Assembly (NCBI RefSeq): GCF_054482595.1
Contig: NZ_CM137008.1
Strand: one strand, 5' to 3'
Length of the DNA stretch: 64,000 bases
Part shown: positions 8,994 to 28,066 of the stretch, in pieces
How the letters are laid out: each line of letters begins with the position of its first letter
Numbering within the stretch: the first letter of the stretch is position 1
The notes under the pieces: model-generated
What the model was told of the DNA's origin: nothing
Database searches by the model: none
What the model saw: only the letters and a program-made list of their open reading frames with translations
Program-made: the position numbers and the translations under genes

Positions 8994-9617
8994 ATGAACA
9001 AGAACTTACTAACAAGGGTAATTATCATTTCGGATGATCTATATTACCTTCAGGGATTAAGTGCAAAACTAGGTCACCATTATCGTTTTTTTATTGAGTG
9101 TTTTTTTTGTTCTCAAAATGCATGTAATAATGACCTAAGTACACTTAGATTTGATAACCGCTTTACCAAAAACGTACTTCTTGTCGCAGTGGATGACGTA
9201 AGTATACTTGCAAAACTGCCAGATTTGGCCAGGTTTTTAATGATTGTTTCACTAAGAAAGATGAAAAACAGAAATATCTTCTTTTCACTTTCAGAGCAAA
9301 CATTCATTAGCCGATATATAAAATTGAATAAACTCATTACTTTGATTAAAAGCACTGATAAAGACCAGCAAGTCAGGCAGGTGACTCTGACAAGGTATGA
9401 GTGGGATATCTATTACTTATATTTTAAGATAGATAACAAAAGAATATTGCACACCCTGCTAAAAAAGGATGTCAAGTATATTAGTCACTATAAAATATCA
9501 GTTTTTAACAAGTTTGAAATTGCTTGTGATAGTGATGGCTTTTACATTTTCAAGGCACTTATACAGTTAAGGAGATTTACCGGTTTTAAAAACGTCAGAT
9601 TGTATCAATTGCATTAA
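8994..9617 (+). CDS. putative fimbrial operon regulator (LuxR/MatA-like, tentative)
   Basis: 207-aa AT-rich ORF immediately upstream of the pilin gene; C-terminal LTRYEWDIYYL...ISVFNKFEI loosely resembles a LuxR-type HTH; architecture parallels ecpR/matA-type regulators; weak. Confidence 0.4.
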   Translation: MNKNLLTRVIIISDDLYYLQGLSAKLGHHYRFFIECFFCSQNACNNDLSTLRFDNRFTKNVLLVAVDDVSILAKLPDLARFLMIVSLRKMKNRNIFFSLSEQTFISRYIKLNKLITLIKSTDKDQQVRQVTLTRYEWDIYYLYFKIDNKRILHTLLKKDVKYISHYKISVFNKFEIACDSDGFYIFKALIQLRRFTGFKNVRLYQLH

Positions 9618-9659
9618 TTAACTCGTTCTATATTAACTCTAAATTTCAAGGATATTATT

Positions 9660-10220
9660 ATGTTTTCTACTTTCAAAAAAGCAGCTCTGCTGGCAGCTAT
9701 TGCATTACCTTTTTCAACTATGGCTGCGCCTACAGTCACTTTTCAGGGTGAAGTAACCGATCAGACCTGTTCCGTAAATATCAACGGTCAAACCAATTCA
9801 GTAGTATTGATGCCGACCGTAGCCATGGCTGACTTCGGTGCAACTTTAGCTGATGGTCAGAGCGCAGGCCAGACGCCGTTTACGGTTTCTGTGTCTAACT
9901 GCCAGGCTCCAACTGGTGCAGATCAGGCAATCAACACCACCTTCCTGGGCTACGACGTTGACGCTAACACGGGAGTTATGGGAAACCGTGATACCAGCAG
10001 CGACGCGGCGAAAGGCTTTGGCATTCAGTTAATGGATTCCAGCACTTCTGGTAACCCAGTAACTCTGGCTGGCGCGACTAACGTACCGGGTCTGACCCTG
10101 AAAGTTGGCGATACTGAAGCCAGCTATGACTTCGGTGCGCGTTACTTCGTTATCGATAGCGCAGCTGCCACTGCCGGTAAAATTACCGCTGTCGCAGAAT
10201 ACACCCTGAGCTACCTCTAA
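9660..10220 (+). CDS. fimbrial major subunit (pilin)
   Basis: 186-aa ORF with signal peptide MFSTFKKAALLAAIALPFSTMA, conserved Cys pair (DQTCSV / VSNCQA), Gly/Thr/Ala-rich, C-terminal beta-strand YTLSYL. Confidence 0.8.
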   Translation: MFSTFKKAALLAAIALPFSTMAAPTVTFQGEVTDQTCSVNINGQTNSVVLMPTVAMADFGATLADGQSAGQTPFTVSVSNCQAPTGADQAINTTFLGYDVDANTGVMGNRDTSSDAAKGFGIQLMDSSTSGNPVTLAGATNVPGLTLKVGDTEASYDFGARYFVIDSAAATAGKITAVAEYTLSYL

Positions 10221-10284
10221 TTAATCTACTGGCTGGCAGTAAATGTCAGCCAGTATTTCTTCGCACAATTAATAGTGATTTTTC

Positions 10285-11007
10285 ATGGACATGGAAAAGA
10301 TAAGAATGAACATTTTTGCATATTTACTGGTACTTGTATTTTCCATGAGCATGAGCAGCAGCGCGTTTGCCAGCGTGGTAATGACCGGAACCCGTATTAT
10401 TTTCCCTGGTGACGCAAAGGAAAAAACCATCCAGTTGCGAAATACCAGCGATCAGCCCTATATCATTAATATCCATGTTGAGGATGAACGTGGTTCTGAC
10501 AAGAATGTACCGTTTATGCCAACCCCGCAGACATTTCGCATGGAAGCTGCCGCAGGTCAGGCGTTACGCCTGCTCTACACAGGTGATAATTTACCGCAGG
10601 ATCGCGAGTCTGTTTTCTGGTTTAGTTTCAGTCAACTACCTTATCTGAATAAGAACGATAAAAGTCAGAACCAGCTCATCCTGGCCCTGACTAATCGAGT
10701 CAAAATTTTCTATCGTCCCAGCTCAATTGTCGGTAAATCCAGTGACGCGCCAAAAAACCTGACTTACCAGGTAAAACAGAACCGCATTGAAGTGACGAAT
10801 CCCACGGGCTATTACGTCGTGATTCGCGCCGCTGAACTGCTTAATAACGGTAAAAAAGTCCCCCTCGCGAATTCCGTCATGATTGCTCCTCAAAGCACAA
10901 CTGAATGGACACTACGCTCTGGCATCAGCGTCGCTCCCGGTGCGCAGATTCATTTAGTGACCGTCAATGACTATGGCGTAAATGTCACGTCTGAGCATGC
11001 CTTATAA
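10285..11007 (+). CDS. periplasmic fimbrial chaperone (PapD-like)
   Basis: 240-aa ORF with signal peptide and typical chaperone motifs (RIIFPGD, LPQDRESVFWF, KIFYRP); exact start uncertain (Met at 10285, 10297 or 10312). Confidence 0.8.
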   Translation: MDMEKIRMNIFAYLLVLVFSMSMSSSAFASVVMTGTRIIFPGDAKEKTIQLRNTSDQPYIINIHVEDERGSDKNVPFMPTPQTFRMEAAAGQALRLLYTGDNLPQDRESVFWFSFSQLPYLNKNDKSQNQLILALTNRVKIFYRPSSIVGKSSDAPKNLTYQVKQNRIEVTNPTGYYVVIRAAELLNNGKKVPLANSVMIAPQSTTEWTLRSGISVAPGAQIHLVTVNDYGVNVTSEHAL

Positions 11008-11059
11008 GCTCTTTCCCCTTTTTTGAGCGGTATCCTTTTTCACGCACGAGTATGTCGAG

Positions 11060-13582
11060 ATGAATAAATCCGTTGTGTCAATTTCTGCGGCAATATTGGT
11101 TTTACTCTGCCAGCCGGTTATGGGGAAAGAAATCTCACCCGCTACACCGTCAGATGAAGACAACTACACCTTTGACCCGCAACTCTTCCGCGGCAGCAGA
11201 TTTAGTCAGTCGTCATTGGCAAAACTGACAACTCGTGAGTCTGTTGCACCGGGCAATTATAAAATGGATATCTATACCAACAATAAGTTGTCAGGTAGTT
11301 GGAATGTCACGTTTAAAGAAGCCGCTGATGGTCGCGTTCTGCCCTGCCTGACGCCTGAAGTCGCGGACGCGATAGGCCTCAAAACAGGGGAAGATAAGGG
11401 TGAAAAAGATCCGGTCTGTACCTTTGCTCAGGAACTCGCTCCCGGCATCACCAGCCAGACACAGTTGTCACAACTGCGCCTTGACTTGTCGGTGCCTCAG
11501 AGTCAAATGATTAGTCGCCCTCGCGGCTATGTCCCCCCCAGCGAGCTGGATACCGGAGCATCGCTGGCGTTCATGAATTATATTGCCAACTATTACAACG
11601 TTGCCTATTCAGGGCAGAATGCTCATAGCCAGCGTTCGCTATGGGCATCATTTAATGGTGGCATCAACCTTGGTGCCTGGCAATATCGTCAGTTATCCAA
11701 CATGACCTGGGATAATGACAAAGGGAATCAGTGGAACAATATTCGTAGCTATTTGCAACGCCCGCTGCCCGCCATAAATAGTCAATTAATGATAGGGCAA
11801 CTTATCACCAGCGGAAGATTTTTCTCTGGACTCAGTTATCACGGCGTTAGTCTCGCGACCGATGAACGTATGCTGCCGGACTCCATGCGCGGCTATGCGC
11901 CGACTATTCGCGGCGTGGCTGCAACAAACGCCAGAGTCTCGGTAATGCAAAACGGTCATGAAATTTATCAGACTACCGTGGCTCCAGGCCCTTTCGAAAT
12001 AAACGACCTATACCCCACCAGCTACAGCGGCGATCTGGATGTCACCGTTACGGAAGCTAATGGCGCAGTCAGTCGTTTCAGTGTCCCCTTTTCAGCCGTA
12101 CCAGAATCGATGCGTCCAGGAACTTCCCGTTATAACGTGGAAGTAGGTAAAACGCAGGATAGCGGTGATGACTCGATGTTTGGTGACCTCACCTGGCAGC
12201 ACGGGATGACTAATACGCTGACATTTAACAGTGGCTCGCGTATCGCTGATGGCTACCAGGCGCTGATGCTTGGCGGAGTCTATGGCAGTACGCTGGGGGC
12301 ATTTGGGGCAAACCTCACTTGGTCCCATGCGCGTGTTCCTGAAAGCGAAGCGCAGAGTGGTTGGATGTCGCAATTAACCTGGAGTAAAACTTTCCAGCCA
12401 ACGTCAACCACCGTCTCCCTAGCAGGTTATCGATACTCTACCAGCGGCTATCGTGATCTGGCTGATGTGCCGGGAGAGCGTCAAGCTGCCAGCAATAAAC
12501 AGTCATGGGACTCCAGCCAGTGGCGTCAACAGTCGCGCTTCGATCTTACGTTAAGTCAGAGCCTTGCGAATTACGGCAACCTGTTTGTGTCAGGTTCAAC
12601 ACAGAACTACCGTGGCGGCAAGAGCCGTGATACCCAGCTTCAGTTAGGTTACAGCAATAGCTTTAGCCATGGCATCAGTATGAACCTTTCCGTCGGACGC
12701 CAAAGAATGGGCGGCTATAAAGACAATTCTGATGATATGCAGACGGTAACGTCCCTTTCATTCTCATTCCCACTTGGCGGCAATGGACCTCGTGTACCAA
12801 GTCTTAGCAACAGCTGGACCCATTCAACTGACGGTAGCTCGCAATTACAAAGCTCGCTAACCGGAATGCTTGATGAAGCGCAGAGCACCAACTACAGCCT
12901 GAACGTCATGCGCGATCAACAGTATAAGCAGACGACGCTAAGCGGAAACATGCAAAAACGTTTTTCACAAACAACCGTCGGATTGAACGCATCGAAGGGC
13001 CAGGATTACTGGCAGGCTTCCGGAAACGTACAAGGTGCGATGGCCGTACATGGTGGCGGCGTTACTTTCGGACCTTATCTGGGTGAAACGTTCGCCCTGG
13101 TCGAAGCTAAAGGCGCTGAAGGTGCAAAAGTCTATAACTCCAGTCAGCTGGAAATTAATGACAGTGGTTATGCGCTTGTTCCGGCAGTAACGCCCTATCG
13201 CTACAACCGTATATCTCTTGATCCACAAGGAATGGATGGCGATGCCGAGTTGGTCGACAGTGAAAAACAGGTAGCACCGGTTGCAGGTGCGGCGGTGAAA
13301 GTAGTCTTCCGTACCCGTCCTGGTAAAGCGCTGCTGATTAAATCCCGCATGGCAGATGGTTCGGAACTGCCAATGGGAGCCGATGTGCTGGATGAGAATA
13401 ATACAGTCGTCGGTATAGCCGGTCAGGGGGGGCAAATTTACCTCCGCACAGAACAGACAAAAGGCCATTTGTCAGTTCGCTGGGGTGAAGGTGCTAACGA
13501 TAGCTGCCAATTGCCCTTTGATATCAGCGGGAAAGACAGCAATAGCCCTATCATCCGCCTGAATGAAACCTGTCAGTCTTGA
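11060..13582 (+). CDS. fimbrial outer-membrane usher
   Basis: 840-aa ORF, signal peptide, size and position between chaperone and adhesin genes typical of ushers. Confidence 0.85.
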   Translation: MNKSVVSISAAILVLLCQPVMGKEISPATPSDEDNYTFDPQLFRGSRFSQSSLAKLTTRESVAPGNYKMDIYTNNKLSGSWNVTFKEAADGRVLPCLTPEVADAIGLKTGEDKGEKDPVCTFAQELAPGITSQTQLSQLRLDLSVPQSQMISRPRGYVPPSELDTGASLAFMNYIANYYNVAYSGQNAHSQRSLWASFNGGINLGAWQYRQLSNMTWDNDKGNQWNNIRSYLQRPLPAINSQLMIGQLITSGRFFSGLSYHGVSLATDERMLPDSMRGYAPTIRGVAATNARVSVMQNGHEIYQTTVAPGPFEINDLYPTSYSGDLDVTVTEANGAVSRFSVPFSAVPESMRPGTSRYNVEVGKTQDSGDDSMFGDLTWQHGMTNTLTFNSGSRIADGYQALMLGGVYGSTLGAFGANLTWSHARVPESEAQSGWMSQLTWSKTFQPTSTTVSLAGYRYSTSGYRDLADVPGERQAASNKQSWDSSQWRQQSRFDLTLSQSLANYGNLFVSGSTQNYRGGKSRDTQLQLGYSNSFSHGISMNLSVGRQRMGGYKDNSDDMQTVTSLSFSFPLGGNGPRVPSLSNSWTHSTDGSSQLQSSLTGMLDEAQSTNYSLNVMRDQQYKQTTLSGNMQKRFSQTTVGLNASKGQDYWQASGNVQGAMAVHGGGVTFGPYLGETFALVEAKGAEGAKVYNSSQLEINDSGYALVPAVTPYRYNRISLDPQGMDGDAELVDSEKQVAPVAGAAVKVVFRTRPGKALLIKSRMADGSELPMGADVLDENNTVVGIAGQGGQIYLRTEQTKGHLSVRWGEGANDSCQLPFDISGKDSNSPIIRLNETCQS

Positions 13583-13597
13583 TACAGAGAAAACCCG

Positions 13598-14932
13598 ATG
13601 TCTAAATCGACTTTTTTACACATTCTGATTAGCTCCATCATATTGGTGGCACTAATACAATCATCCGCCTGGGCTAACTGTACAAACACACAGATAGGTC
13701 AAACTGAAGATGGTCGGACAGCGCTTATTGAGTTCGGAAAAATTAATATGACCGACACCTATTTTGCGCCAGCAGGTTCACTCCTCGCGACAACGGTCGT
13801 ACCTCCCACTAACTACACATCAGGTGGCGCGACAGGAAGCTCCGTATTGTGGGAATGTGATGCAACAGATTTGCCAAACATCTATTTTCTGGTCGCTACC
13901 AATGGCGACGACCGCGTGGGGGGCTTTTATGATGCAGGCGGGCCTGATGGTTTGAGTGATGTCTATGCCACCTGGTTCGCTTTTGTCGGTCTCAAACAGA
14001 CCATGGCGGGCGTGACGCTTGGTCGTTACTGGAAGAAAGTGCCCATCACCAGTTATGCCACTCAGGGAACTAAAATCCAGATCCGCTTACAGGATATCCC
14101 TCCTCTTCATGCTGAGCTTTATCGCATCAGTACACTACCTGATACATCAGCAACAACAAGTTGGTGCGGTAATAATAATACAGATGGTAGTGGAGTCGGA
14201 TTCGCAAAACCTTCCGGTACAATCTATAACTGTGTTCAGCCCAATGCCTATATTCAGCTTTCCGGTACCAGCGGCATTTTATTTGGTCATGATGAGCCCG
14301 GCGAAGATAGTTCTGTTCATTGGGATTTCTGGGGGGCTGATAATGGTTTTGGTTACGGAATGCGATCGGCAAATCGACTCTACAACAATGCCACCTGCGT
14401 TGCCCGCAGCGCCACGCCGTTAGTATTGCTACCGACAATTGCAGAAGCACAACTGAATGCGGGCATGGAAAGTACCGGTAATTTTAATGTCCGCGTCGAG
14501 TGTAGTAACTCGGTTCAATCAGGGATTAGCGATACTCAGACAGCATTAGGAATCCAGGTGTCTGAAGGTGCATATACAGCGGCGCAAAAACTGGGGATTA
14601 TCAATAGCAACGGCGGCGTCAGCGCCCTGGTCTCTGATAATTATGACGCAGTAGAGATGGCAAAGGGCGTTGGGATCTACATTTCTAACAGTGCTCACCC
14701 CGATACGGCGATGACGCTGGTTGGTCAACCGGGCATCGCGAAGTTAACCCCCGGAGGAAATGCAGCGGGGTGGTATCCTGTATTTGAAGGGGCAACATTA
14801 GAAGGTGCGACTCACCCCGGATACTCCAGCTATAGTTACTCTTTTATCGCCCGGTTGAAGAAACTGCCAAATCAGACAGTCAGTGCGGGAAAAGTGCGGG
14901 CAACGGCTTATATATTGGTGAAAATGCAATGA
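13598..14932 (+). CDS. putative fimbrial tip adhesin / minor subunit
   Basis: 444-aa secreted protein (signal peptide) located after usher; two-domain size typical of tip adhesins; overlaps next gene by ATGA. Confidence 0.5.
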   Translation: MSKSTFLHILISSIILVALIQSSAWANCTNTQIGQTEDGRTALIEFGKINMTDTYFAPAGSLLATTVVPPTNYTSGGATGSSVLWECDATDLPNIYFLVATNGDDRVGGFYDAGGPDGLSDVYATWFAFVGLKQTMAGVTLGRYWKKVPITSYATQGTKIQIRLQDIPPLHAELYRISTLPDTSATTSWCGNNNTDGSGVGFAKPSGTIYNCVQPNAYIQLSGTSGILFGHDEPGEDSSVHWDFWGADNGFGYGMRSANRLYNNATCVARSATPLVLLPTIAEAQLNAGMESTGNFNVRVECSNSVQSGISDTQTALGIQVSEGAYTAAQKLGIINSNGGVSALVSDNYDAVEMAKGVGIYISNSAHPDTAMTLVGQPGIAKLTPGGNAAGWYPVFEGATLEGATHPGYSSYSYSFIARLKKLPNQTVSAGKVRATAYILVKMQ

Positions 14933-15618
14933 AATCCGTTTTGCTGCTCTTAACCGTCTTGTTCGTACAGTCAGTGGAAGCCGGCATCATGCCGGCTTCT
15001 TCACGGATGATTTATCGCGATGGCGATCGGGAAAAGACGCTGATGTTGGTCAATACCAATGACTACCCGGTACTGGTGCAAAGTTGGGTAGATAATGGTG
15101 AAAGTTCCCCAGAAGCTGCTTCTCCCCCCTTTGTGGTGCTGCCACCGGTTTTCCGCCTGGCTGCGAGACGAACACAGGGATTGCGGATAATCTATAATCA
15201 TGACCCACTTCCCCAGGATCGCGAATCTGCATTCTGGTTAAATCTTTATGAAATGCCGCCAGAAACTCCCCATCAAGATCCCACACATTTAACGCTGGCA
15301 ATGAATACGCAACTTAAAGTCTTTTACAGACCTAAATCTGTAACTATGACACCTGAAGAAGCTATGCGTAAAATAAGTTGGCATTTGGGTAACGACGGCA
15401 GCAGCAGCTATATTGAGCTTAATAACCCAACACCACTGAATATCTCTTTCACCTCCATCAGCATTGGGACTACAAAGGTGCAGCAAGAAAGCGATATGAT
15501 GATAAAACCCTTCAGTCAACGACGGTACTGGTTAGCAAGTAATAACGTTAGTGGGATCGTTACTGCGACATATCTCGATGATAATGGTGCACAGATAAAG
15601 CAACAATTAGCGCAATAA
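14929..15618 (+). CDS. second periplasmic fimbrial chaperone (PapD-like)
   Basis: 229-aa ORF; motifs RMIYRDGD, LPQDRESAFWL, KVFYRP parallel the first chaperone. Confidence 0.75.
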   Translation: MKSVLLLLTVLFVQSVEAGIMPASSRMIYRDGDREKTLMLVNTNDYPVLVQSWVDNGESSPEAASPPFVVLPPVFRLAARRTQGLRIIYNHDPLPQDRESAFWLNLYEMPPETPHQDPTHLTLAMNTQLKVFYRPKSVTMTPEEAMRKISWHLGNDGSSSYIELNNPTPLNISFTSISIGTTKVQQESDMMIKPFSQRRYWLASNNVSGIVTATYLDDNGAQIKQQLAQ

Positions 15619-15695: not shown

Positions 15696-15730
15696 AGTGG
15701 AGAAATGACAAAATCTCTCCACTCCATTTT
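15696..15730 (+). terminator. possible intrinsic terminator downstream of fimbrial operon
   Basis: 7-bp stem GTGGAGA...TCTCCAC followed by T-rich TCCATTTTCC; weak. Confidence 0.3.
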
Positions 15731-15763
15731 CCAGTCAAAACACCTCAACGCAGCCAAAAATCG

Positions 15764-16555
15764 TTAACGAATTGAATATCCACCATCAATGACTAATAGT
15801 TGTCCATTGACATAATCTGAAGCGGCACTGGCGAGGAACACCATTGCGCCCATAAGATCCTGTGCCCTTCCCCAGCGTTGAGCCGGTATACGCCCTTTTA
15901 TTAACTCTTTTATTTTAGGGTTATTATAAATAATAGCGGTCATTTCACTCACATAATATCCTGGGGCGATACCATTAATCTGAATATTATATTCCGCAAA
16001 ATCATCGGCATACGCTTTGGTCAGCCCCGCTAAAGCATGTTTAGTCGCCGCATACCCTGGCGACCAACGTCCACCATGAAATGACAATACGGAACACATA
16101 TTAATAATTTTCCCTTTTCTTTGCGGGACAAATATATTCAATGCGGCCTGGCTCATATCGAATGCAGCATTCAGGTTGAGATTAATCATCGGATCCCAGT
16201 CGTTTCGATTGAAATCGATAGGACGATTAATGTTACACACGCCCGCGTTATTGACCAGAATATCTAACTGACCGAAACGCTCCAGACACCTATTAATAAT
16301 GGTACATGCTGCATCAGGTTTTGTTATGTCAATTGTCATAAACTCAACTTCAACGCCTTCATGAGTTAAATGCTTTAAATATTTATTATCAGGCTCTTTG
16401 ATGTCTACCAACAACAGATTAGCCCCTGCTTTGGCCAGAGCCGAGCATAAGCCTCTCCCCAGTTCACCCGCGGCCCCAGTTACGATGGCCACCTTGTTAT
16501 GTAATGAAAAAAAATCCAATGAAAAATCTTCAATAGAAAAGCTCATATCACACAT
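15764..16555 (-). CDS. short-chain dehydrogenase/reductase (KduD/FabG-like)
   Basis: 263-aa ORF; Rossmann motif VTGAAGELGRG, NNAG, catalytic YAATK. Confidence 0.8.
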   Translation of the reverse strand: MCDMSFSIEDFSLDFFSLHNKVAIVTGAAGELGRGLCSALAKAGANLLLVDIKEPDNKYLKHLTHEGVEVEFMTIDITKPDAACTIINRCLERFGQLDILVNNAGVCNINRPIDFNRNDWDPMINLNLNAAFDMSQAALNIFVPQRKGKIINMCSVLSFHGGRWSPGYAATKHALAGLTKAYADDFAEYNIQINGIAPGYYVSEMTAIIYNNPKIKELIKGRIPAQRWGRAQDLMGAMVFLASAASDYVNGQLLVIDGGYSIR

Positions 16556-17232
16556 TGCTCCTTATGAGTAAGTAATATTTAAGGGATAATTTAAGTAATT
16601 TTTAGATATCAATAAAAAAATATAAACGTTAAAACTCAGCATGAATAATAAACATCAAATCTTATATACATTTAAGTAGTGATGTATCACGTAATAATAT
16701 AGTCATCATAGATGTTATGCAGTACGCACAAAAAAACAGGCTGGATTTGCTTGCTGATTTATAATCTTTATCTAAATTACTATTAGCGCTTTGGATAATA
16801 ACATAAGCATATATTACCTCCTAGCAATAATAGACATAACCTCATATCAAGGTGTCACTGGCAAATAATCGGATAAAAGACAGCATCGGTCGGCGCATAG
16901 AGCTTCTTCTATTTCACCAGAAGTGCACAGCAGGGAACTACCAATCACACGGTTAGTGTCTTGGGTGGAGGATGCGACCCGTTCTTTCCCTATAACGGGG
17001 ATACGCAGTTTCTATCAGTACATGCAGAAAACCCCTAATTCACATCACTGCAGAAAGCATTTAATAGAAATATACATCGTTTAAGAATTTCAATTAAATC
17101 AAGATTATTCTTAAAAATCAGATAATTCACATTTGCATTTTTAGGAAATTATACTATAGTGCACTTAATGTTCTTGCCTTTATTTTCTGAGTAATACTGG
17201 ATTTGTAATACACAACTAAGGTATAAAATGTA

Positions 17233-18045
17233 ATGATCTACATTATAAATGATGAAGTAAGATTCAACTCATCATCTAATAAGTTAACATCACTCCTTAC
17301 ATCAGAGGAAGTGATACTCAATTATCCTGCGGGAAAATGCTTAAAGTTACTTTTAGATAACGCTTATAGTGTCGTGTCACACAATCAATTCTTTGAAAAA
17401 GTCTGGAGCGATAGCAGTGCCGAAGTCGCAACCAACACTTTATATCAAAATATATCGATGATAAGGCGTTCCTTTCGTGAAATCAGCTCAGCGACGATAT
17501 TTAATGATGTTATCAGAACGGTGCCACGTAAAGGCTTCAAAATCAATGAAGAAATCAACATAACTGTTCTCGACAATAATCACAATGAGAATGAAAGTGT
17601 TGAGAGTGAAGAGAATGGCACCCATACTGAAAATATAAATAAAAATCACGTTGCAAAAGGTATATTTACCACAAAGAATACATTGCTTATAGTTTCTTTT
17701 TTTGCAGCATGGGGGATAGTGTATATATCTTCTTATTTTTTCGATATGGCTTTTCAAAGCAAATCCCACACTATAAAAAAAATAGATGCTTTCTCAAATT
17801 ATGCTCAACACCCTACTCAGGAAGGGTGTAGCTATTTCTATGACAATAGATATTTTAATTCTGTAGACATGTTATCACCGATTATTGAAAAATTGCAGAA
17901 AATGGAAATTAACTGCAAAATACATCCTTACATTTACATTGCAACAAATGATAGCATGAGCGGGTTTTATGCTTTCACCTGTAGTCAGATGTTAAACTCT
18001 GAATCACCAAATAATTGTAATTCTCTCTATTATAAAGCGGAGTAA
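17233..18045 (+). CDS. ToxR/CadC-like membrane-anchored transcriptional regulator (OmpR-type winged helix + TM + periplasmic domain)
   Basis: N-terminal wHTH resembling CadC/ToxR (VVSHNQFFEKVWSD...TVPRKGFKI), single predicted TM helix (LLIVSFFAAWGIVYISSYFF), C-terminal periplasmic region; SD AAGG upstream. Confidence 0.65.
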   Translation: MIYIINDEVRFNSSSNKLTSLLTSEEVILNYPAGKCLKLLLDNAYSVVSHNQFFEKVWSDSSAEVATNTLYQNISMIRRSFREISSATIFNDVIRTVPRKGFKINEEINITVLDNNHNENESVESEENGTHTENINKNHVAKGIFTTKNTLLIVSFFAAWGIVYISSYFFDMAFQSKSHTIKKIDAFSNYAQHPTQEGCSYFYDNRYFNSVDMLSPIIEKLQKMEINCKIHPYIYIATNDSMSGFYAFTCSQMLNSESPNNCNSLYYKAE

Positions 18046-18049
18046 TCAT

Positions 18050-18541
18050 ATGACTCAAAGATATTTTCTATTTGCGGGAATAATTTTATGTGCTTTTATT
18101 GCAGCAATTCTGAGCCATATTGCGTTTCATCATGCCAATGAACCAGCAGAGCAAAACATATCATGTAATGCCCATGTTATTAATTTCACCGATCATACGA
18201 AAATGGATCAATACTTTTCGTTAAATATGATTTCTGAAAATAACACAGGAAACATGTATCTCACGGGTGCATACACGGTAAATGGAAAAAAAATGGGTTT
18301 CATCCGCCGATATGTGAGTTTTACATACAAGAAATTCCGTGATACCGTTTATTTCACCACTGTTAAAATACAAAAAATACAAAAAGATGATAACATTAGT
18401 GATGAAATCCTTGAAAATATCACTTCTGATTTTTTCATAAAAGTAGACACCTCAATTAATTTTTATGTTACACGTCAAAATGATTACAACTACATATTCT
18501 CTACAGGCAGGACACCACGCTTCATATGTATTTCCCACTAA
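18050..18541 (+). CDS. small membrane-anchored periplasmic protein, possible ToxS-like partner
   Basis: 163-aa ORF 4 bp after the regulator; N-terminal TM helix (YFLFAGIILCAFIAAIL); function inferred only from position. Confidence 0.35.
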   Translation: MTQRYFLFAGIILCAFIAAILSHIAFHHANEPAEQNISCNAHVINFTDHTKMDQYFSLNMISENNTGNMYLTGAYTVNGKKMGFIRRYVSFTYKKFRDTVYFTTVKIQKIQKDDNISDEILENITSDFFIKVDTSINFYVTRQNDYNYIFSTGRTPRFICISH

Positions 18542-18641
18542 CAGTAGTGTTGATCATTGCGCTTGTCATTAGATAATAACCTTCTGATGGCTTTGTTTAT
18601 ATTTTAAGGCAATAAAAAACATTCCAATATTGGTTAATTAT

Positions 18642-20156
18642 TTATCTGTTTACATACCACTGATAAAACTCTGTCGCTTTCATTGGTTTTGCATATAAGT
18701 ATCCCTGAACTAATGTCACGTTATTATGAATAAGATATTCCGCCTGGTGAGGAGTACTGACACCTTCTGCAATCGTTATCAAATTGAGTCGATTACTCAG
18801 CTTAATAATAATATCTAAAACTGGCGTTTCGTCTTCCGCTGTAGTGAGTGTGTCTATAAAGCTTTTATCTATTTTAAGATAATCAACAGACAACTTTTGC
18901 AGAAGGCCAAGGGAACAATATCCCGTGCCAAAATCATCAACTGCAAATTCACAGCCATGGATCCTTAATTCATTTATTTTCTGTAATGCAAGATCAGTAT
19001 CTTCAACCAGATTGCGTTCGGTAATCTCAAGAACAATGTTAAATTTATCAGATATTTCATTTTTAATATGTAAAACATCAGCAACAAAATCAGGATGTGC
19101 AAGATGCTCCGCGGCAATATTTATCCCAAGGTGAAACGGCTTTTTCACTTTCCAGCTTTGTACATCCTGAATAATCAGTTCAAAGAGATGCTTAGTTAAC
19201 GGTATAATTAAATTTTCCTCTTCTGCAGCGCGGATAAAAACTACCGGAGATATATTTTTACCATCTTCGCGTTGCCAACGCATTAACGCCTCAACCCCCA
19301 GACACGCTTTGGTTGTCGTGTCACATACTGGTTGATAATGCACAGAAAATTCTCCGGATGACATTCCTTTCTTAATTTCTTCTGCCAGGGACATTTTCCG
19401 AGATATCCAGCGCTGCCATAAGAAGTACAGAATAAAAGAAAGAAGAATAGATAATGGAAGAATGTAAAATACATTACTAATGACATAGGGATATAATGAA
19501 ATCATCGGCGTAGTAACTGTAAGACTAGCCTGACTGATCGCAGAATTAAAATCTTTTTTTAACATATATAACTTGTCATTATTATTTACACCACTAATAA
19601 TTGCAGGCCCTTCAGTAAAGCTAAGAGAAAATGAATCATCATTCTCATCATCAAGAACATCCATCAGATCATAGATATATCGTGACTCTACAATACTAAA
19701 AGCTGTCATATCATTCCCTATTGGCATAAGGAACACTATGGCTGTTTTACCTGGTACAAAACTTGTACCGCTAATTGATACTATGCGTGATTCTTTATTT
19801 TTATTGTGAAAGCTCGTACCGTAAACATCGTTAACATTCATTTTTTTGAAACCGCTAACTGAAGAACATATTTGGAAATTATTTTCTATAAGACCCGTTG
19901 TTCGTACATAGGGGGTCAATGCTCCGTTAGCAATCAATTGTTCCAGGATATCTTTGCAGGGTTTCATCACCAGAATAGAAGTAAGCTTTGTCGTATGTTT
20001 GACAATTTGCGTAACATTATCAAGCTGTTTTAACAGAATACCGGCGGTAATTGTCGTATCTCGATTCATTTGAAATACTGACATAGCAAACGACAGTAAC
20101 ACCCCCAGAATGCCTGGTATTATAATGAGTACAAACATTTTTTTGTTGAATACCAT
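18642..20156 (-). CDS. CSS-motif domain c-di-GMP phosphodiesterase (EAL domain)
   Basis: Two TM segments flanking a periplasmic domain with Cys residues (KPCKD, QICSSVSG), C-terminal EAL domain with EALMRW and DDFGTG motifs; start placed at MVFNKK with GGGGA SD (ORF track 18642..20252). Confidence 0.8.
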   Translation of the reverse strand: MVFNKKMFVLIIIPGILGVLLSFAMSVFQMNRDTTITAGILLKQLDNVTQIVKHTTKLTSILVMKPCKDILEQLIANGALTPYVRTTGLIENNFQICSSVSGFKKMNVNDVYGTSFHNKNKESRIVSISGTSFVPGKTAIVFLMPIGNDMTAFSIVESRYIYDLMDVLDDENDDSFSLSFTEGPAIISGVNNNDKLYMLKKDFNSAISQASLTVTTPMISLYPYVISNVFYILPLSILLSFILYFLWQRWISRKMSLAEEIKKGMSSGEFSVHYQPVCDTTTKACLGVEALMRWQREDGKNISPVVFIRAAEEENLIIPLTKHLFELIIQDVQSWKVKKPFHLGINIAAEHLAHPDFVADVLHIKNEISDKFNIVLEITERNLVEDTDLALQKINELRIHGCEFAVDDFGTGYCSLGLLQKLSVDYLKIDKSFIDTLTTAEDETPVLDIIIKLSNRLNLITIAEGVSTPHQAEYLIHNNVTLVQGYLYAKPMKATEFYQWYVNR

Positions 20157-20349
20157 ACATGTTTCCCCACGCATCAGGGTGATGCAACCTAAGAAATTAT
20201 AGTACAATTGCCAGTAAAAGCGGGTGATAGCAGACTGATCAATGATAAGCATTTAAGATCATATAGTACTATGATATTTCTGAAAATTGTTACGCAAGTC
20301 TGCGAATAGCTATTTAGCGCTTACCAAAATCACCCGCTTAAATGCCGCT

Positions 20350-21708
20350 TTATGGTGACTCACAAAAATTCACCACATCCCTCACAACCACCTTATTACG
20401 CCCGGTCTCTTTCGCCTCGTATAGTGCGTTATCAGCCAGTCGATAGATCTCATTCGGGTTTAACGCATTTCCCTGAGTCACAACAGCGCCAATACTAATC
20501 GTCACTTTTTGTGGTATGGCGTATTCAGGATTATCACCAGTTAAACGCTCAACATTTTCCCGAATCCTTTCCGCTAAAGCTTTCGCACGTTCAGTATCGA
20601 TGTCCGTCAGCAAGACGCCAAACTCTTCGCCGCCGACGCGCGCAAAAAGGTCATCTGGCCGTATGCTTTTCCCAATGATATTCACCACTGTTTTTATCAC
20701 CTGATCGCCAATCGGATGCCCCCAGGTGTGGTTGACTTTTTTGAAGTGGTCGATATCCATAAGCATGACGCAATAAGGCGTTTTTTTGGCCGATGCTGAT
20801 TGAACCGTCAGTTCATTAAAAAAATAATTTCTGTTAAATATATTGGTTAAGGGATCGCGATGTGCAATGTCCTTTGTTACTCGTAGCGCACTGAATATAT
20901 GGCACATAAATATTACCATAACGGTTAACTTACTGACTACTTCAATAGTGCGACTAATATACCAAATGGACACGCTATACCTGCTCATAAATAAAAGAGA
21001 GACATTGTACAGTACGGCACAAAAAGCAATCACCGTCACTCCATTCCAGATATCATAGCGTAAACCATTAAAGTATAGATTAACCGAAAGCAAGGTTAAC
21101 CACATGAAAATCATTATGGTAACATATGAAGCTTTCCAAACCACTTGACCATTTTCATTGGTTAACTCGGCAATGTGTAAATCGTAGCTCTCATAATGGC
21201 TAGAAAGTATGTGAGCAACTATCGGCCCCCCAAGAACAAAAAACAAACTTATGCACAAAGTCATTTTTTTGGAAAATAAATTGCGCTGTTTTGTGTTTTC
21301 ACTAACTTTATTCACCAATGCCAGAAATATTAATATGCACAAACTCATCTGACGGAACAAATAATAAATTGCAATGTCATTTTGAACAACACTGCTTGTC
21401 AAACGCCCCTCAATCATTTGCTGAATGATAATGACGGTTTTAACAAAGTAAATCAAACAACTCAGAAAAGCCAAACTAAGTATACAGTTTGAAAATTGCC
21501 TACGGTCATAAATGAAATACAACTGCATAAAAATAAATGCAACAGTATCGATAAAAAATAAAGCAATCATTACCATCAGATAGGTTGATCGTGGAACAAC
21601 TTCCTCAACGCCTGGCTGATTAAACCAACTATTCACCAAAACCAAAGCAAGCCCAAACAATAAGCTCACTAAGACAGTACTACTAATTCTCAAATAGTCT
21701 TTTTCCAT
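20350..21708 (-). CDS. dgcT: membrane diguanylate cyclase DgcT (GGDEF)
   Basis: Translation from MEKDYLRISSTVLVSLLFG matches recalled K-12 YcdT; GGDEF motif present as RVGGEEFGV; divergent from pgaA as in K-12. Confidence 0.85.
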   Translation of the reverse strand: MEKDYLRISSTVLVSLLFGLALVLVNSWFNQPGVEEVVPRSTYLMVMIALFFIDTVAFIFMQLYFIYDRRQFSNCILSLAFLSCLIYFVKTVIIIQQMIEGRLTSSVVQNDIAIYYLFRQMSLCILIFLALVNKVSENTKQRNLFSKKMTLCISLFFVLGGPIVAHILSSHYESYDLHIAELTNENGQVVWKASYVTIMIFMWLTLLSVNLYFNGLRYDIWNGVTVIAFCAVLYNVSLLFMSRYSVSIWYISRTIEVVSKLTVMVIFMCHIFSALRVTKDIAHRDPLTNIFNRNYFFNELTVQSASAKKTPYCVMLMDIDHFKKVNHTWGHPIGDQVIKTVVNIIGKSIRPDDLFARVGGEEFGVLLTDIDTERAKALAERIRENVERLTGDNPEYAIPQKVTISIGAVVTQGNALNPNEIYRLADNALYEAKETGRNKVVVRDVVNFCESP

Positions 21709-21831
21709 AAAGCTACACCAACCTGTAGGTTGTAGATCCCTTTCTATTATTAATAGATATAAGAACTGTACAGTTGTCAATATGAAAACCCACTCACAAA
21801 CAATACCGATGATGATAGTTGCAGACCGCAA

Positions 21832-22296
21832 TTATTATTACCTTAGTGCTTTATACATTCTTTGCGACAAGACAGGCTTGCAAATATTTATAAATGGTTA
21901 TAAGGAAATCCTTATAAAACATTCATTCATAGATATATTAGGAATAACAATTGAATCCGTGAGTACAGTAACGCTGCATTTCATCAGGGCTTTCGAAAAA
22001 TCCGAAATCATGCATCGGAATTTACTGATTTAATTATTTTACTCCTAACTTATTTTGAAAAAGGCATTGGGATTTATGCCGTATTCCTGAAGATCCTCAT
22101 CATTGGAATGGATTTTCGGGCGAGAAAAGGATTTTATATGGACACTCTGCTCATCATTTCTTCTTCTCATCATCAACAATTCACGTCTCTCTTCCGCGTT
22201 TAATAACGGATTATGAGGTGCAAAAAATATCTTTCTTTTCAGTTACCTGTCATTAGATACAGAGAGAGATTTTGGCAATACATGGAGTAATACAGG
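21832..22296 (+). promoter_or_regulatory. pgaA promoter and long 5' leader (CsrA-repressed leader, GGA motifs)
   Basis: 465-bp divergent intergenic region; GGA motifs including one overlapping SD (ACAGGATG); pgaA leader is a known CsrA target. Confidence 0.5.
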
Positions 22297-24720
22297 ATGT
22301 ATTCAAGTAGCAGAAAAAGGTGCCCGCAAACCAAATGGGCTTTGAAAATTCTTACTGCCGCATTTTTAGCAGCGAGTCCCGCGGCGAAGAGTGCCGTTAA
22401 TAACGCCTATGATGCATTGATTATTGAAGCTCGCAAGGGAAATACTCAGCCAGCTTTGTTATGGTTTGCACAAAAATCAGCACTCAGTAATAACCAAATT
22501 GCTGACTGGTTACAGATTGCCTTATGGGCCGGGCAAGATAAACAAGTTATTACCGTTTACAACAGCTACCGTCATCAGCAATTACCAGCGCGTGGTTATG
22601 CAGCTGTCGCCGTCGCTTATCGTAACCTGCAACAATGGCAAAACTCGCTTACACTGTGGCAAAAGGCGCTCTCTCTGGAGCCGCAAAATAAGGATTATCA
22701 ACGGGGACAAATTTTAACCCTGGCAGATGCGGGTCACTATGATACTGCGCTGGTTAAACTTAAGCAGCTTAACTCTGGAGCACCGGACAAAGCCAATTTA
22801 CTCGCAGAAGCCTATATCTATAAACTGGCAGGGCGTCATCAGGATGAATTACGGGCGATGACAGAGTCATTACCTGAAAATGCATCTACGCAACAATATC
22901 CCACAGAATACGTGCAGGCATTACGTAATAATCAACTTGCTGCCGCGATTGACGATGCCAATTTAACGCCAGATATTCGCGCTGATATTCATGCCGAACT
23001 GGTCAGACTGTCGTTTATGCCTACGCGCAGTGAAAGTGAACGTTATGCCATTGCCGATCGCGCCCTCGCCCAATACGCTGCATTAGAAATTCTGTGGCAT
23101 GATAACCCTGACCGCACTGCCCAGTACCAGCGTATTCAGGTTGATCATCTTGGCGCGTTATTAACTCGCGATCGTTATAAAGACGTTATTTCTCACTATC
23201 AGCGTTTAAAAAAGACGGGGCAAATTATTCCGCCCTGGGCGCAATATTGGGTTGCGTCGGCTTATCTCAAAGAACATCAGCCAAAAAAAGCACAGTCAAT
23301 AATGACAGAGCTCTTTTATCACAAGGAGACCATTGCCCCGGATTTATCCGATGAAGAACTTGCGGATCTCTTTTACAGCCACCTGGAGAGTGAAAATTAT
23401 CCGGGCGCGCTAACTGTCACCCAACATACCATTAATACTTCGCCGCCTTTCCTTCGGTTAATGGGCACGCCTACGAGCATCCCGAATGATACCTGGTTAC
23501 AGGGGCATTCGTTTCTCTCAACCGTAGCAAAATATAGTAATGATCTTCCTCAGGCTGAAATGACAGCCAGAGAGCTTGCTTATAACGCACCAGGAAATCA
23601 GGGACTGCGCATTGATTATGCGAGTGTGTTACAAGCCCGCGGTTGGCCTCGTGCAGCAGAAAATGAATTAAAAAAAGCAGAAGTGATCGAGCCACGTAAT
23701 ATTAATCTGGAGGTTGAACAAGCCTGGACAGCATTAACGTTACAAGAATGGCAGCAGGCAGCGGTCTTAACGCACGATGTTGTCGAACGTGAACCGCAAG
23801 ATCCCGGCGTTGTACGATTAAAACGTGCGGTTGATGTACATAATCTTGCAGAGCTTCGTATCGCTGGCTCAACAGGAATTGATGCCGAAGGTCCGGATAG
23901 TGGCAAACATGATGTCGACTTAACCACCATCGTTTATTCACCACCGCTGAAGGATAACTGGCGCGGTTTTGCTGGATTCGGTTATGCCGATGGACAATTT
24001 AGCGAAGGAAAAGGGATTGTTCGCGACTGGCTTGCGGGTGTTGAGTGGCGGTCACGTAATATCTGGCTCGAGGCGGAGTACGCTGAACGCTTTTTCAATC
24101 ATGAGCATAAACCCGGCGCGCGCCTGTCTGGCTGGTATGATTTTAATGATAACTGGCGTATTGGTTCGCAACTGGAACGCCTCTCTCACCGCGTTCCATT
24201 ACGGGCAATGAAAAATGGTGTTACAGGCAACAGTGCACAGGCTTATGTTCGTTGGTATCAGAATGAGCGGCGTAAGTACGGTGTCTCCTGGGCTTTCACT
24301 GATTTTTCCGACAGTAACCAGCGTCATGAAGTCTCACTTGAGGGTCAGGAACGCATCTGGTCTTCACCATATTTGATTGTCGATTTCCTACCCAGTCTGT
24401 ATTACGAACAAAATACAGAACACGATACCCCATACTACAACCCTATAAAAACGTTCGATATTGTTCCGGCATTTGAGGCAAGCCATTTGTTATGGCGTAG
24501 CTATGAAAATAGCTGGGAGCAAATATTCAGCGCAGGTGTTGGTGCCTCCTGGCAAAAACATTATGGCACGGATGTCGTCACCCAACTCGGCTACGGGCAA
24601 CGCATTAGCTGGAATGACGTGATTGATGCTGGCGCAACGCTACGCTGGGAAAAACGACCTTATGACGGTGACAGAGAACACAACTTATACGTTGAATTCG
24701 ATATGACATTCAGATTTTAA
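22297..24720 (+). CDS. pgaA: poly-beta-1,6-N-acetylglucosamine export porin PgaA
   Basis: 807-aa ORF, near-identical by eye to recalled K-12 PgaA (TPR region + beta-barrel). Confidence 0.95.
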   Translation: MYSSSRKRCPQTKWALKILTAAFLAASPAAKSAVNNAYDALIIEARKGNTQPALLWFAQKSALSNNQIADWLQIALWAGQDKQVITVYNSYRHQQLPARGYAAVAVAYRNLQQWQNSLTLWQKALSLEPQNKDYQRGQILTLADAGHYDTALVKLKQLNSGAPDKANLLAEAYIYKLAGRHQDELRAMTESLPENASTQQYPTEYVQALRNNQLAAAIDDANLTPDIRADIHAELVRLSFMPTRSESERYAIADRALAQYAALEILWHDNPDRTAQYQRIQVDHLGALLTRDRYKDVISHYQRLKKTGQIIPPWAQYWVASAYLKEHQPKKAQSIMTELFYHKETIAPDLSDEELADLFYSHLESENYPGALTVTQHTINTSPPFLRLMGTPTSIPNDTWLQGHSFLSTVAKYSNDLPQAEMTARELAYNAPGNQGLRIDYASVLQARGWPRAAENELKKAEVIEPRNINLEVEQAWTALTLQEWQQAAVLTHDVVEREPQDPGVVRLKRAVDVHNLAELRIAGSTGIDAEGPDSGKHDVDLTTIVYSPPLKDNWRGFAGFGYADGQFSEGKGIVRDWLAGVEWRSRNIWLEAEYAERFFNHEHKPGARLSGWYDFNDNWRIGSQLERLSHRVPLRAMKNGVTGNSAQAYVRWYQNERRKYGVSWAFTDFSDSNQRHEVSLEGQERIWSSPYLIVDFLPSLYYEQNTEHDTPYYNPIKTFDIVPAFEASHLLWRSYENSWEQIFSAGVGASWQKHYGTDVVTQLGYGQRISWNDVIDAGATLRWEKRPYDGDREHNLYVEFDMTFRF

Positions 24721-24728
24721 GGATAAAT

Positions 24729-28065: not shown

Positions 28066-28066
28066 T

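What the first reader, a model, noticed from the sequence alone, without database searches (positions are those of the whole stretch)
17233..21708. ToxR/CadC-like membrane regulator and partner plus an extra CSS-EAL phosphodiesterase inserted beside dgcT-pgaABCD
PgaCD activity is known to be allosterically controlled by c-di-GMP, and DgcT sits divergently from pgaA. Here an additional CSS-motif EAL phosphodiesterase lies immediately next to dgcT, and a ToxR-like one-component membrane regulator with a small co-transcribed membrane partner (ToxS-like arrangement, 4-bp gap) lies convergent to it. This looks like a local signalling module that could tune PGA biofilm output or the neighbouring adhesin operons. 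K-12 is recalled to carry IS3, ymdE and ycdU here instead.
Basis: partly seen in the sequence, partly recalled or inferred. Interest (0 to 1): 0.55.

Follow-up and report, generated by a model that had tools for sequence, protein, structure and literature searches.

The report
Known O-island 47 genes grvA-fidL-pdeT
The flagged genes are real, but they are the already named and partly characterised E. coli genes grvA, fidL and pdeT (vmpA) at the end of "O-island 47", so the finding is correct in its anatomy and not new.

Summary
All four ORFs exist at the stated coordinates and have the predicted domains. The 270-aa protein has a ToxR-like winged helix, one membrane helix and a small periplasmic domain. 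Its 163-aa partner models as a VtrC/ToxS-type lipocalin barrel. The 504/536-aa protein is a CSS-EAL phosphodiesterase with an intact catalytic set. dgcT and pgaABCD lie beside them.

"Inserted" is the wrong direction. K-12 and 2,293 other genomes carry an IS3 scar that removed 31.7 kb. The K-12 genes ymdE' and ycdU are the far-end remnant of the same island.

Synteny does not support a dedicated PGA-tuning module. In Pseudocitrobacter, grvA-fidL travels with the fimbrial, two-partner-secretion (TPS) and SDR genes but without pdeT, dgcT or pga. Seven PdeT relatives sit in varied contexts.

A residual untested idea is that GrvA/FidL natively controls the adjacent fimbrial operon.

The parts
17233..18045 (+). 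grvA: ToxR-family membrane-anchored transcription regulator. Winged helix at residues 1-113, disordered Asn/Glu-rich linker at 114-146, membrane helix at about 147-177, periplasmic alpha/beta domain at 185-270 with Cys199, 228, 250 and 262.
   Evidence: Pfam Trans_reg_C E 1.8e-10. 264/270 identical to the Sakai homologue. AF2 model has pLDDT about 90 for residues 1-110 and 70-79 for the periplasmic domain. Foldseek top hits are ToxR 8b4b (TM 0.88) and CadC 5ju7. One hydrophobic segment at 150-170. Four Cys are invariant in 8 homologues.
18050..18541 (+). fidL (YqeJ family): single-pass periplasmic lipocalin-like beta-barrel, the co-component partner of GrvA. N-terminal anchor helix at 2-29, barrel at 37-162, with Cys39 and Cys160 on the first and last strands.
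18642..20252 (-). pdeT (vmpA): CSS-motif EAL c-di-GMP phosphodiesterase. The likely true start is at 20156 (504 aa). TM1, a periplasmic CSS domain (Cys99 and the Cys129-Ser-Ser motif, in 536-aa numbering), TM2 and a cytoplasmic EAL domain.
   Evidence: Pfam CSS-motif and EAL. 498/504 identical to Sakai PdeT. Catalytic motifs align with the PA3825 EAL domain and were located by script. Hydrophobic segments at 31-62 and 253-280. Literature: PMC4287979, PMC5897775.
20253..20349 (.). dgcT-pdeT spacer. It contains the point (window 20340, 10 nt after the dgcT stop) where K-12 homology ends at the edge of IS3D, which is the right boundary of O-island 47.
   Evidence: blastn of the window against K-12 and Sakai. 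K-12 annotation. No terminator-like hairpin found between the two genes. Sequence read directly.
20350..21708 (-). dgcT (ycdT): membrane diguanylate cyclase with GGEEF at residue 359 and an RxxD I-site at 350. It is divergent from pgaA.
   Evidence: TIGR00254 GGDEF E 3.1e-44. Annotated dgcT in all matching genomes. Motifs located.
16556..17232 (+). AT-rich (about 33% GC) regulatory region upstream of grvA. An RcsB-dependent grvA promoter is reported in the literature.
   Evidence: Composition. Reviews report RcsB binding to the grvA promoter (PMC8565820, PMC6393859). Not mapped here.
8994..15618 (+). O-island 47 chaperone-usher fimbrial operon: a 207-aa unknown protein, major subunit, chaperone, 840-aa usher, 444-aa tip subunit and a second chaperone. 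It is the neighbour that stays linked to grvA-fidL in another genus.
   Evidence: ORFs. Annotations. NCBIfam fimbrial hits. Orthologous block at 77% DNA identity in Pseudocitrobacter.
15764..16555 (-). KduD-like SDR oxidoreductase between the fimbrial operon and grvA. It is also conserved in the Pseudocitrobacter island.
   Evidence: NCBIfam hit to KduD at 296 bits, below the cutoff of 369. 74% DNA identity to L005.

Best explanation
The interval is the right-hand end of the E. coli genomic segment called O-island 47, carried here by a strain outside the classical O157:H7 lineage. It holds two separate, already named units that lie next to the core genes dgcT and pgaABCD.

(1) grvA-fidL is a ToxR/ToxS- or VtrA/VtrC-type 'co-component' signalling cassette. 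GrvA is anchored in the inner membrane by one helix and binds DNA with a cytoplasmic winged helix. Its small periplasmic domain is predicted to dock onto the periplasmic lipocalin-like barrel of FidL, which would sense a periplasmic, probably lipid-like, cue. In O157:H7, grvA is activated by RcsB, and GrvA indirectly represses gadW/gadE and thereby raises LEE expression.

(2) pdeT (vmpA) is a CSS-domain EAL phosphodiesterase that degrades c-di-GMP. In O157:H7 its loss affects motility and biofilm. By analogy with PdeC, its activity is probably gated by a DsbA-formed disulfide between the two periplasmic cysteines and by DegP/DegQ processing.

Shown here: gene identity, domain architecture, folds, catalytic residues, island boundaries and distribution. 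Taken from the literature: the regulatory targets and the enzymatic activity. Inferred: the GrvA-FidL heterodimer, the nature of the ligand and redox control of PdeT. The adjacency to dgcT-pga is best read as the edge of a block that many lineages, K-12 included, lost through an IS3-associated deletion. It is not a purpose-built PGA controller.
Against: The functional statements for GrvA and VmpA come from O157:H7 work that I could read only through reviews and citing papers; the primary papers (PMID 23078901, PMC4719443) were not held. This window comes from a different lineage, 100% identical to strains XH990, O157:H16 Santai and TUM18780, where LEE may be absent. The GrvA read-out there is therefore unknown. 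No terminator-like element separates dgcT from pdeT, so co-transcription and a functional DgcT/PdeT pairing cannot be excluded. The GrvA-FidL complex, the ligand and the PdeT disulfide switch are inferred by analogy only.
Confidence: 0.88

Rival explanations
1. The four genes form a dedicated local signalling module. PdeT locally counteracts DgcT to gate c-di-GMP-dependent PgaCD activity, and GrvA/FidL sets transcription of pdeT, dgcT or pga in response to a periplasmic cue.
For: pdeT lies 97-193 bp downstream of dgcT on the same strand, with no terminator-like hairpin between them. DgcT has an intact GGEEF motif and I-site and is divergent from pgaA. VmpA is reported to influence biofilm formation (PMC4076661). 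On one E. huaxiensis plasmid, a PdeT relative has a GGDEF gene 3.6 kb upstream.
Against: Linkage is not conserved. The orthologous island in Pseudocitrobacter ends after fidL and is followed by sugar-PTS genes, with no pdeT, dgcT or pga. None of the seven PdeT-relative contexts examined contains pga genes, and only one has a nearby GGDEF gene, separated from it by IS fragments. Inside E. coli, co-occurrence is uninformative because all these genes lie in one deletion block. Published GrvA targets are gadW/gadE and LEE, not pga. No paper testing PdeT against DgcT or PGA was found.
Confidence: 0.15
2. GrvA/FidL is primarily the cognate regulator of the neighbouring O-island 47 adhesin genes: the chaperone-usher fimbrial operon at 8994-15618 and perhaps the two-partner-secretion adhesin at 2082-7602. 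This would parallel PsaE/PsaF controlling psa fimbriae and MarT/FidL controlling misL. The LEE and GAD effects in O157:H7 would then be secondary.
For: The block TPS - fimbrial operon - SDR - grvA - fidL is conserved as a unit in Pseudocitrobacter sp. RIT415, at 73-80% DNA identity and 50% GrvA identity. A 49%-identical GrvA homologue sits directly downstream of an ECP/Mat-type fimbrial operon (L010). A 32%-identical homologue sits 2.6 kb from another chaperone-usher operon (L011). A distant ToxR-like/FidL-like pair in E. hormaechei lies in an island with a chaperone-usher operon. Characterised relatives control adjacent adhesins, such as PsaE, MyfE and MarT (PMC10269533 Table 1; PMC9214523).
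Against: There is no experimental evidence, and the accessible literature on GrvA does not mention the OI-47 fimbriae. Fimbrial operons are numerous in enterobacterial genomes and cluster in islands, so adjacency is suggestive only. Only three independent contexts were seen. The YqeI/YqeJ paralogue is not next to fimbriae.
Confidence: 0.3
3. The genes are decaying island remnants with no function in this strain.
For: The region has low GC (31-40%), typical of H-NS-silenced acquired DNA. Most E. coli lineages have lost the block.
Against: All four ORFs are intact and full length. They are 98-99% identical in protein to the O157:H7 genes reported as functional. All catalytic and structural residues are conserved.
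Confidence: 0.03

Closest known systems
[not shown]
   Same: Orthologous: 264/270 and 160/163 identical residues. Same gene order, same 4-nt spacing and same flanking genes.
   Different: The host lineage is not O157:H7, O55:H7 or O145:H28. There are six and three amino-acid substitutions respectively. Whether the LEE/GAD read-out applies here is unknown.
[not shown]
   Same: Orthologous: 498/504 identical. Same position directly downstream of dgcT, and the same AEGVS variant of the EGVE motif.
   Different: Six substitutions (for example S210R, K227R, E399A, L420H, I430S, P501S relative to Sakai). Many RefSeq records annotate a 536-aa form, while the named pdeT record uses the 504-aa start.
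VtrA/VtrC (V. parahaemolyticus) and ToxR/ToxS (Vibrio) co-component systems
   Different: Sequence identity is only 3-7% for the barrels. FidL has the N/C-strand disulfide pair (C39, C160) typical of the FidL/YqeJ branch. Bile-salt binding is shown for VtrC but not tested for FidL.
MarT/FidL (Salmonella SPI-3) and YqeI/YqeJ (E. coli ETT2 region)
   Same: Same family. Reviews give about 30% identity between GrvA and MarT. An E. marmotae homologue with 31% identity to GrvA sits in a yqeI/yqeJ-like locus next to xanthine dehydrogenase-type genes. The partner carries Pfam YqeJ_C/FidL_like.
   Different: These are paralogues, not orthologues. MarT activates the adjacent misL adhesin, and YqeI/J sits in the ETT2 remnant.
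PdeC (YjcC) and the other K-12 CSS-domain phosphodiesterases (PdeB, D, G, N)
   Same: Same TM1 - CSS domain - TM2 - EAL architecture with two periplasmic cysteines. The best NCBIfam hit is the PRK10551 c-di-GMP phosphodiesterase model at 312 bits.
   Different: The score is below the equivalog cutoff of 461, so PdeT is a separate paralogue. Redox and DegP control has been demonstrated for PdeC and PdeB only (PMC5897775).

Membership tests
ToxR-family transmembrane transcription regulator (GrvA orthologue) | N-terminal OmpR/PhoB-type winged-helix DNA-binding domain without a receiver domain | tested here: met
   Pfam Trans_reg_C at 26-103, E 1.8e-10. AF2 pLDDT is about 90 over residues 1-110. 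Foldseek top hits are the ToxR DNA-binding domain 8b4b (E 1e-7, TM 0.88) and CadC 5ju7.
ToxR-family transmembrane transcription regulator (GrvA orthologue) | Single membrane helix following the DNA-binding domain, then a small periplasmic domain with conserved cysteines | tested here: met
   One hydrophobic segment at 150-170. AF2 helix at 147-177 and a beta-beta-alpha-beta-beta-beta domain at 190-268 with pLDDT 70-79. C199, C228, C250 and C262 are invariant in 8 homologues.
ToxR-family transmembrane transcription regulator (GrvA orthologue) | Orthology to GrvA of O157:H7 (sequence and synteny) | tested here: met
   264/270 identical. The 40-kb context is collinear at 98.2%. Identification of that Sakai gene as GrvA/ECs1274 rests on PMC9214523 Table 1 and on gene order.
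VtrC/ToxS/FidL co-component sensor superfamily | Gene immediately downstream of, or overlapping, the regulator gene on the same strand | tested here: met
   The 4-nt gap between 18045 and 18050. The same arrangement is seen in homologues L005, L007, L010 and L011.
VtrC/ToxS/FidL co-component sensor superfamily | N-terminal membrane anchor plus an eight-stranded lipocalin-like periplasmic barrel | tested here: met
   [not shown]
VtrC/ToxS/FidL co-component sensor superfamily | FidL/YqeJ-branch disulfide pair on the first and last barrel strands | tested here: met
   C39 is invariant and C160 is at least 90% conserved across 68 representatives. Actual disulfide formation was not tested.
VtrC/ToxS/FidL co-component sensor superfamily | Obligate periplasmic heterodimer with the regulator, and ligand (bile or lipid) binding | not testable with these tools
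   Only single-chain prediction was available. A GrvA/FidL complex model is reported in PMC9214523. No ligand data exist.
CSS-domain EAL c-di-GMP phosphodiesterase (PdeT/VmpA) | TM1 - periplasmic CSS domain - TM2 - cytoplasmic EAL architecture | tested here: met
   Pfam CSS-motif at 63-222 and EAL at 291-523. Hydrophobic segments at 31-62 and 253-280.
CSS-domain EAL c-di-GMP phosphodiesterase (PdeT/VmpA) | Two conserved periplasmic cysteines, including the CSS motif | tested here: met
   C99 and C129-S-S are the only cysteines between TM1 and TM2.
CSS-domain EAL c-di-GMP phosphodiesterase (PdeT/VmpA) | Complete EAL catalytic set: EAL Glu, Arg, Asn, ExxE, DD, Lys, catalytic Glu and Gln | tested here: met
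   E321-A-L with MRW, N378, E409-ITE-R, D439-D-FGTGY, K460-ID, AE496-GV and Q516-G all align with the PA3825 EAL domain. Only the second Glu of EGVE is Ser, as in Sakai PdeT. To my knowledge that position is not among the essential residues defined for RocR and TBD1265.
CSS-domain EAL c-di-GMP phosphodiesterase (PdeT/VmpA) | Demonstrated c-di-GMP hydrolysis, and redox/DegP control | not testable with these tools
   Activity of VmpA is reported by Branchu et al. (PMID 23078901), which I know only through citing papers. Redox control has been shown only for PdeC and PdeB.
O-island 47 of E. coli O157:H7 | 31.7-kb segment between dgcT and ymdE/ycdU that is absent from K-12 | tested here: met
   The window aligns to Sakai across the island. 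K-12 homology ends at window 20340 and resumes in mid-ymdE at Sakai L004 position 16000. The computed gap is about 31.7 kb, matching the published 31,727 bp. The window itself covers only the right ~20 kb of the island.

The most novel reading that the evidence does not exclude
GrvA/FidL may ancestrally be the dedicated sensor-regulator of the adjacent O-island 47 adhesin genes (the chaperone-usher fimbriae and possibly the two-partner-secretion adhesin). PdeT would then be an adhesin-island-associated phosphodiesterase that couples adhesin expression to motility. The LEE and GAD effects described in O157:H7 would be a later co-option. In lineages like this one, outside the classical O157:H7/O55:H7/O145:H28 group, the cassette would have only this local role. 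The island is also much more widely distributed, and older, than the 'O157-specific' label in reviews implies, because K-12-type strains lost it through an IS3-associated deletion.
Probability: 0.3. Interest if true: 0.35.

Novelty: already known. Interest (0 to 1): 0.12.

Why it matters
It matters little as a discovery. All three flagged genes are named and annotated in RefSeq. GrvA and VmpA have been studied experimentally in O157:H7, and the GrvA/FidL pair was classified and modelled in the co-component survey (PMC9214523). Three modest points are useful. (a) O-island 47 is better described as a block that K-12-type strains lost through an IS3-associated deletion than as an O157-specific acquisition. 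(b) It occurs in about 8% of complete E. coli genomes, including isolates from ducks, chickens, pigs, an otter and human clinical samples that carry no EHEC serotype label, which is wider than reviews state. (c) Synteny across genera ties grvA-fidL to fimbrial operons rather than to c-di-GMP or PGA genes. That points experiments on the native GrvA regulon towards the uncharacterised OI-47 fimbriae.

Tried and rejected
1. I looked for a Pfam or NCBIfam family for the 163-aa partner and found none in the libraries searched. A profile of 68 homologues also found no related solved structure by sequence. Only 2-4 of the 68 members hit FidL_like individually. Fold comparison was needed to place the protein.

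2. The promoter and terminator scan of 16400-22400 gave promoter-like sites at chance level (26 found, 26.4 expected). It found no terminator-like site in either the fidL/pdeT or the dgcT/pdeT spacer. Operon structure therefore remains undecided.

3. I searched GTDB species-representative genomes for close PdeT relatives. Only distant EAL domains at 23-33% identity were returned, and these gave no useful context. The large protein search then found the nearest non-E. coli relatives at 51-56% identity.

4. I tested whether PdeT relatives are linked to GGDEF/pga genes or to ToxR-like cassettes. Of seven contexts, one had a ToxR-like/FidL-like pair plus fimbriae, one an inverse-autotransporter adhesin, one a GGDEF gene on a plasmid, and four nothing relevant. 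I rejected this as evidence for a conserved module.

5. I tested whether the 207-aa ORF at the head of the fimbrial operon is an EcpR/YqeH-like regulator. BLASTP gave E 0.26 and there was no NCBIfam hit, so this is not supported.

6. The primary papers on VmpA (PMID 23078901) and GrvA (PMC4719443), and the Povolotsky & Hengge comparison, were not available. Functional statements therefore rest on reviews and citing papers.

7. I did not test whether the strains carrying the 100%-identical allele have LEE, because no tool filters hits by accession.

Full report
**Observation.**
- 17233-18045 (+, 270 aa).
- 18050-18541 (+, 163 aa), 4 nt after the previous stop.
- 18642-20252 (-, 536 aa).
- pgaABCD follows divergently at 22297-28480.

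The interval is AT-rich, at 31-40% GC against about 48-53% in the flanks. Pfam finds Trans_reg_C in the 270-aa protein (E 1.8e-10). It finds CSS-motif plus EAL in the 536-aa protein (E 3.8e-13 and 5.6e-64). It finds nothing for the 163-aa protein. NCBIfam confirms a GGDEF domain in the fourth protein and gives weak CadC, VanR and HilA winged-helix hits for the first.

**Identity.** Megablast of 15500-22400 against 5,426 complete E. coli genomes found the whole stretch in 372 genomes. It is 100% identical in strains such as XH990, O157:H16 Santai and TUM18780. The annotations there are 'winged helix-turn-helix domain-containing protein', 'hypothetical protein' or 'FidL', 'EAL domain-containing protein' and dgcT.

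The 3.2-kb core (17100-20300) is present in 415 genomes. Most are O157:H7, at 98.0-98.1% identity. In two of those records RefSeq names the genes 'pdeT: cyclic di-3',5'-guanosine monophosphate phosphodiesterase PdeT' and 'YqeJ family protein'.

Window 1-40300 aligns as one collinear block with O157:H7 Sakai at 98.2%. Protein identities to Sakai are 264/270, 160/163 and 498/504.

The literature identifies these genes.
- It is the sixth CSS-domain PDE, found in 'certain EHEC and EPEC strains' (PMC5897775).
- GrvA (ECs_1274, z1531) with FidL (ECs_1273) is a ToxR-family co-component cassette (PMC9214523).
- It lies in O-island 47, a 31,727-bp segment spanning z1528-z1556 (PMC8565820; PMC10877973).

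The finding therefore rediscovers grvA, fidL and pdeT.

*EAL residues:* aligned with the PA3825 EAL domain, the protein keeps every essential motif. These are the EAL glutamate with the following Arg, the Asn, ExxE (LEITER), DDFGTGY, KID, the catalytic Glu of AEGV and QG. Only the second Glu of 'EGVE' is Ser, and the Sakai protein has the same residue. The two periplasmic cysteines (C99 and C129 in the literal C-S-S motif) lie between two hydrophobic segments at 31-62 and 253-280.

*Winged helix:* an AlphaFold2 model from an 8-sequence alignment has pLDDT of about 90 over residues 1-110. It shows a disordered linker, a helix at 147-177 and a small alpha/beta periplasmic domain. Its best structural matches are the V. 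cholerae ToxR DNA-binding domain bound to DNA (E 1e-7, TM 0.88) and the E. coli CadC DNA-binding domain.

**'Inserted' versus 'deleted'.** K-12 indeed has IS3D, the ymdE pseudogene and ycdU after dgcT. K-12 homology to the window ends at 20340, which is 10 nt past the dgcT stop and exactly at one end of IS3D. The sequence at the other end of IS3D maps to the middle of an intact ACP S-malonyltransferase gene, followed by ycdU, at the far end of the island in Sakai. The missing stretch computes to about 31.7 kb, the published size of OI-47.

K-12 thus carries an IS3-associated deletion that truncated ymdE. The island was not inserted next to dgcT in this strain. The same dgcT-IS3 junction is present in 2,293 of 5,426 genomes, and the intact block in 409-415. 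Carriers include isolates from duck, chicken, pig, otter, deer, fish and baboon and human clinical isolates with no EHEC serotype label. That is a wider distribution than the 'exclusively O157:H7, O55:H7 and O145:H28' stated in reviews.

**Is it one module?** Within E. coli the genes always co-occur, but that is uninformative because they share one deletion block. Contexts outside E. coli are more telling.
- In Pseudocitrobacter sp. RIT415, the orthologous segment (TPS adhesin, 207-aa ORF, fimbrial operon, SDR, grvA, fidL) is conserved at 73-80% DNA identity. It ends after fidL and is followed by sugar-PTS genes, with no pdeT, dgcT or pga.
- A 49%-identical GrvA homologue follows an ECP/Mat-type fimbrial operon.
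- A 32%-identical homologue lies 2.6 kb from another chaperone-usher operon.
- A 31%-identical E. marmotae homologue sits in a yqeI/yqeJ-like locus.

PdeT has no close relative outside E. coli. Identity drops from 97% to 56%, and the GTDB scan returned only distant EAL domains. The seven relatives I examined lie in varied contexts, often IS- or plasmid-associated.
- One (E. hormaechei) is 2.3 kb from a distant ToxR-like/FidL-like pair, with 23% identity to GrvA, and near a fimbrial operon.
- One is next to a 2,372-aa inverse autotransporter.
- One is 3.6 kb from a GGDEF gene.
- Four have nothing relevant nearby.

None has pga genes. I conclude that grvA-fidL and pdeT are two separate units. 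grvA-fidL shows a recurrent association with fimbrial operons. The proximity to dgcT-pga is positional rather than a conserved functional coupling.

**Mechanism.** *GrvA/FidL (inferred from fold and family).* GrvA is a membrane-anchored one-component regulator. Its periplasmic domain is predicted to pair with the FidL barrel, as VtrA pairs with VtrC, and FidL would provide a ligand pocket. Reviews report that RcsB activates grvA, and that GrvA indirectly represses gadW/gadE and so raises LEE expression and lowers acid resistance.

*PdeT (architecture and residues shown here; activity and phenotypes from citing papers).* PdeT hydrolyses c-di-GMP and affects motility and biofilm in O157:H7. Control by a periplasmic disulfide and DegP/DegQ processing is an analogy with PdeC and PdeB.

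A DgcT/PdeT antagonism at PgaCD remains possible. The two genes are in tandem with no predicted terminator between them. It is untested, and I found no paper addressing it.

**Verdict.** The anatomy is correct but already known, so interest is low. The one lead worth a bench test is whether GrvA/FidL controls the uncharacterised OI-47 fimbrial operon beside it.

Noticed in passing
window 20340 and K-12 locus L003 9246-10847: K-12's IS3D sits exactly at the O-island 47 boundary, and its other side is a truncated ymdE. OI-47 is therefore an IS3-associated 31.7-kb deletion in K-12. The same scar is shared by 2,293 of 5,426 complete genomes. It is not an O157-specific insertion.
   Followed up: yes
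window 20156-20252 (minus strand): The pdeT start is ambiguous. Many RefSeq records annotate the 536-aa ORF from 20252, while the record that names the gene pdeT uses Met33 (20156, 504 aa). Met33 has a GGGGA Shine-Dalgarno-like sequence 7 nt upstream and places TM1 at the N-terminus.
   Followed up: partly
window 8994-9617 (+): A 207-aa ORF heads the fimbrial operon and has no Pfam or NCBIfam family. It is conserved in Pseudocitrobacter, and its 3' end shares a 92-nt match (75%) with the sequence just upstream of a MatB-like fimbrial gene in metagenomic locus L010. A test for EcpR/YqeH-like similarity was not significant (E 0.26).
   Followed up: partly
window 1-7602 (minus strand): The left part of the window carries the rest of the OI-47 cargo: FabZ-like dehydratase, SDR, holo-ACP synthase, a ShlB/FhaC-type TpsB transporter (2082-3701) and a 1,270-aa two-partner-secretion exoprotein (3790-7602). 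An uncharacterised fatty-acid/polyketide-like cluster next to a lipocalin-type sensor (FidL) raises the untested idea that FidL senses a lipid made by the island itself.
   Followed up: no
L020 (Enterobacter hormaechei CP169086.1) 1-13097: An IS-rich island combines a chaperone-usher fimbrial operon, a PdeT-like CSS-EAL gene (55% identity) and, 2.3 kb away, a distant ToxR-like (23% identity to GrvA) plus FidL_like pair. This is a second, apparently independent juxtaposition of the same three kinds of gene.
   Followed up: partly
L001 (E. coli THO-010) 15230-18901: In this strain, which carries the same grvA-fidL-pdeT allele, pgaB is broken by an IS1 and an ISKpn26 insertion. The island is therefore retained even where PGA synthesis is presumably lost.
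   Followed up: no
alignment A1, protein P0010 (E. coli DEC4E), columns about 140-175: The DEC4E GrvA sequence is identical to the others except for a roughly 35-residue stretch across the membrane helix that reads as unrelated sequence. This looks like a double frameshift or an assembly error in that draft genome.
   Followed up: no
(hit lists): Reviews describe OI-47/grvA as confined to O157:H7, O55:H7 and O145:H28. The block is also present at 96-100% identity in isolates from duck, chicken, pig, otter, deer, fish and baboon and in human clinical isolates with no EHEC serotype label.
   Followed up: partly
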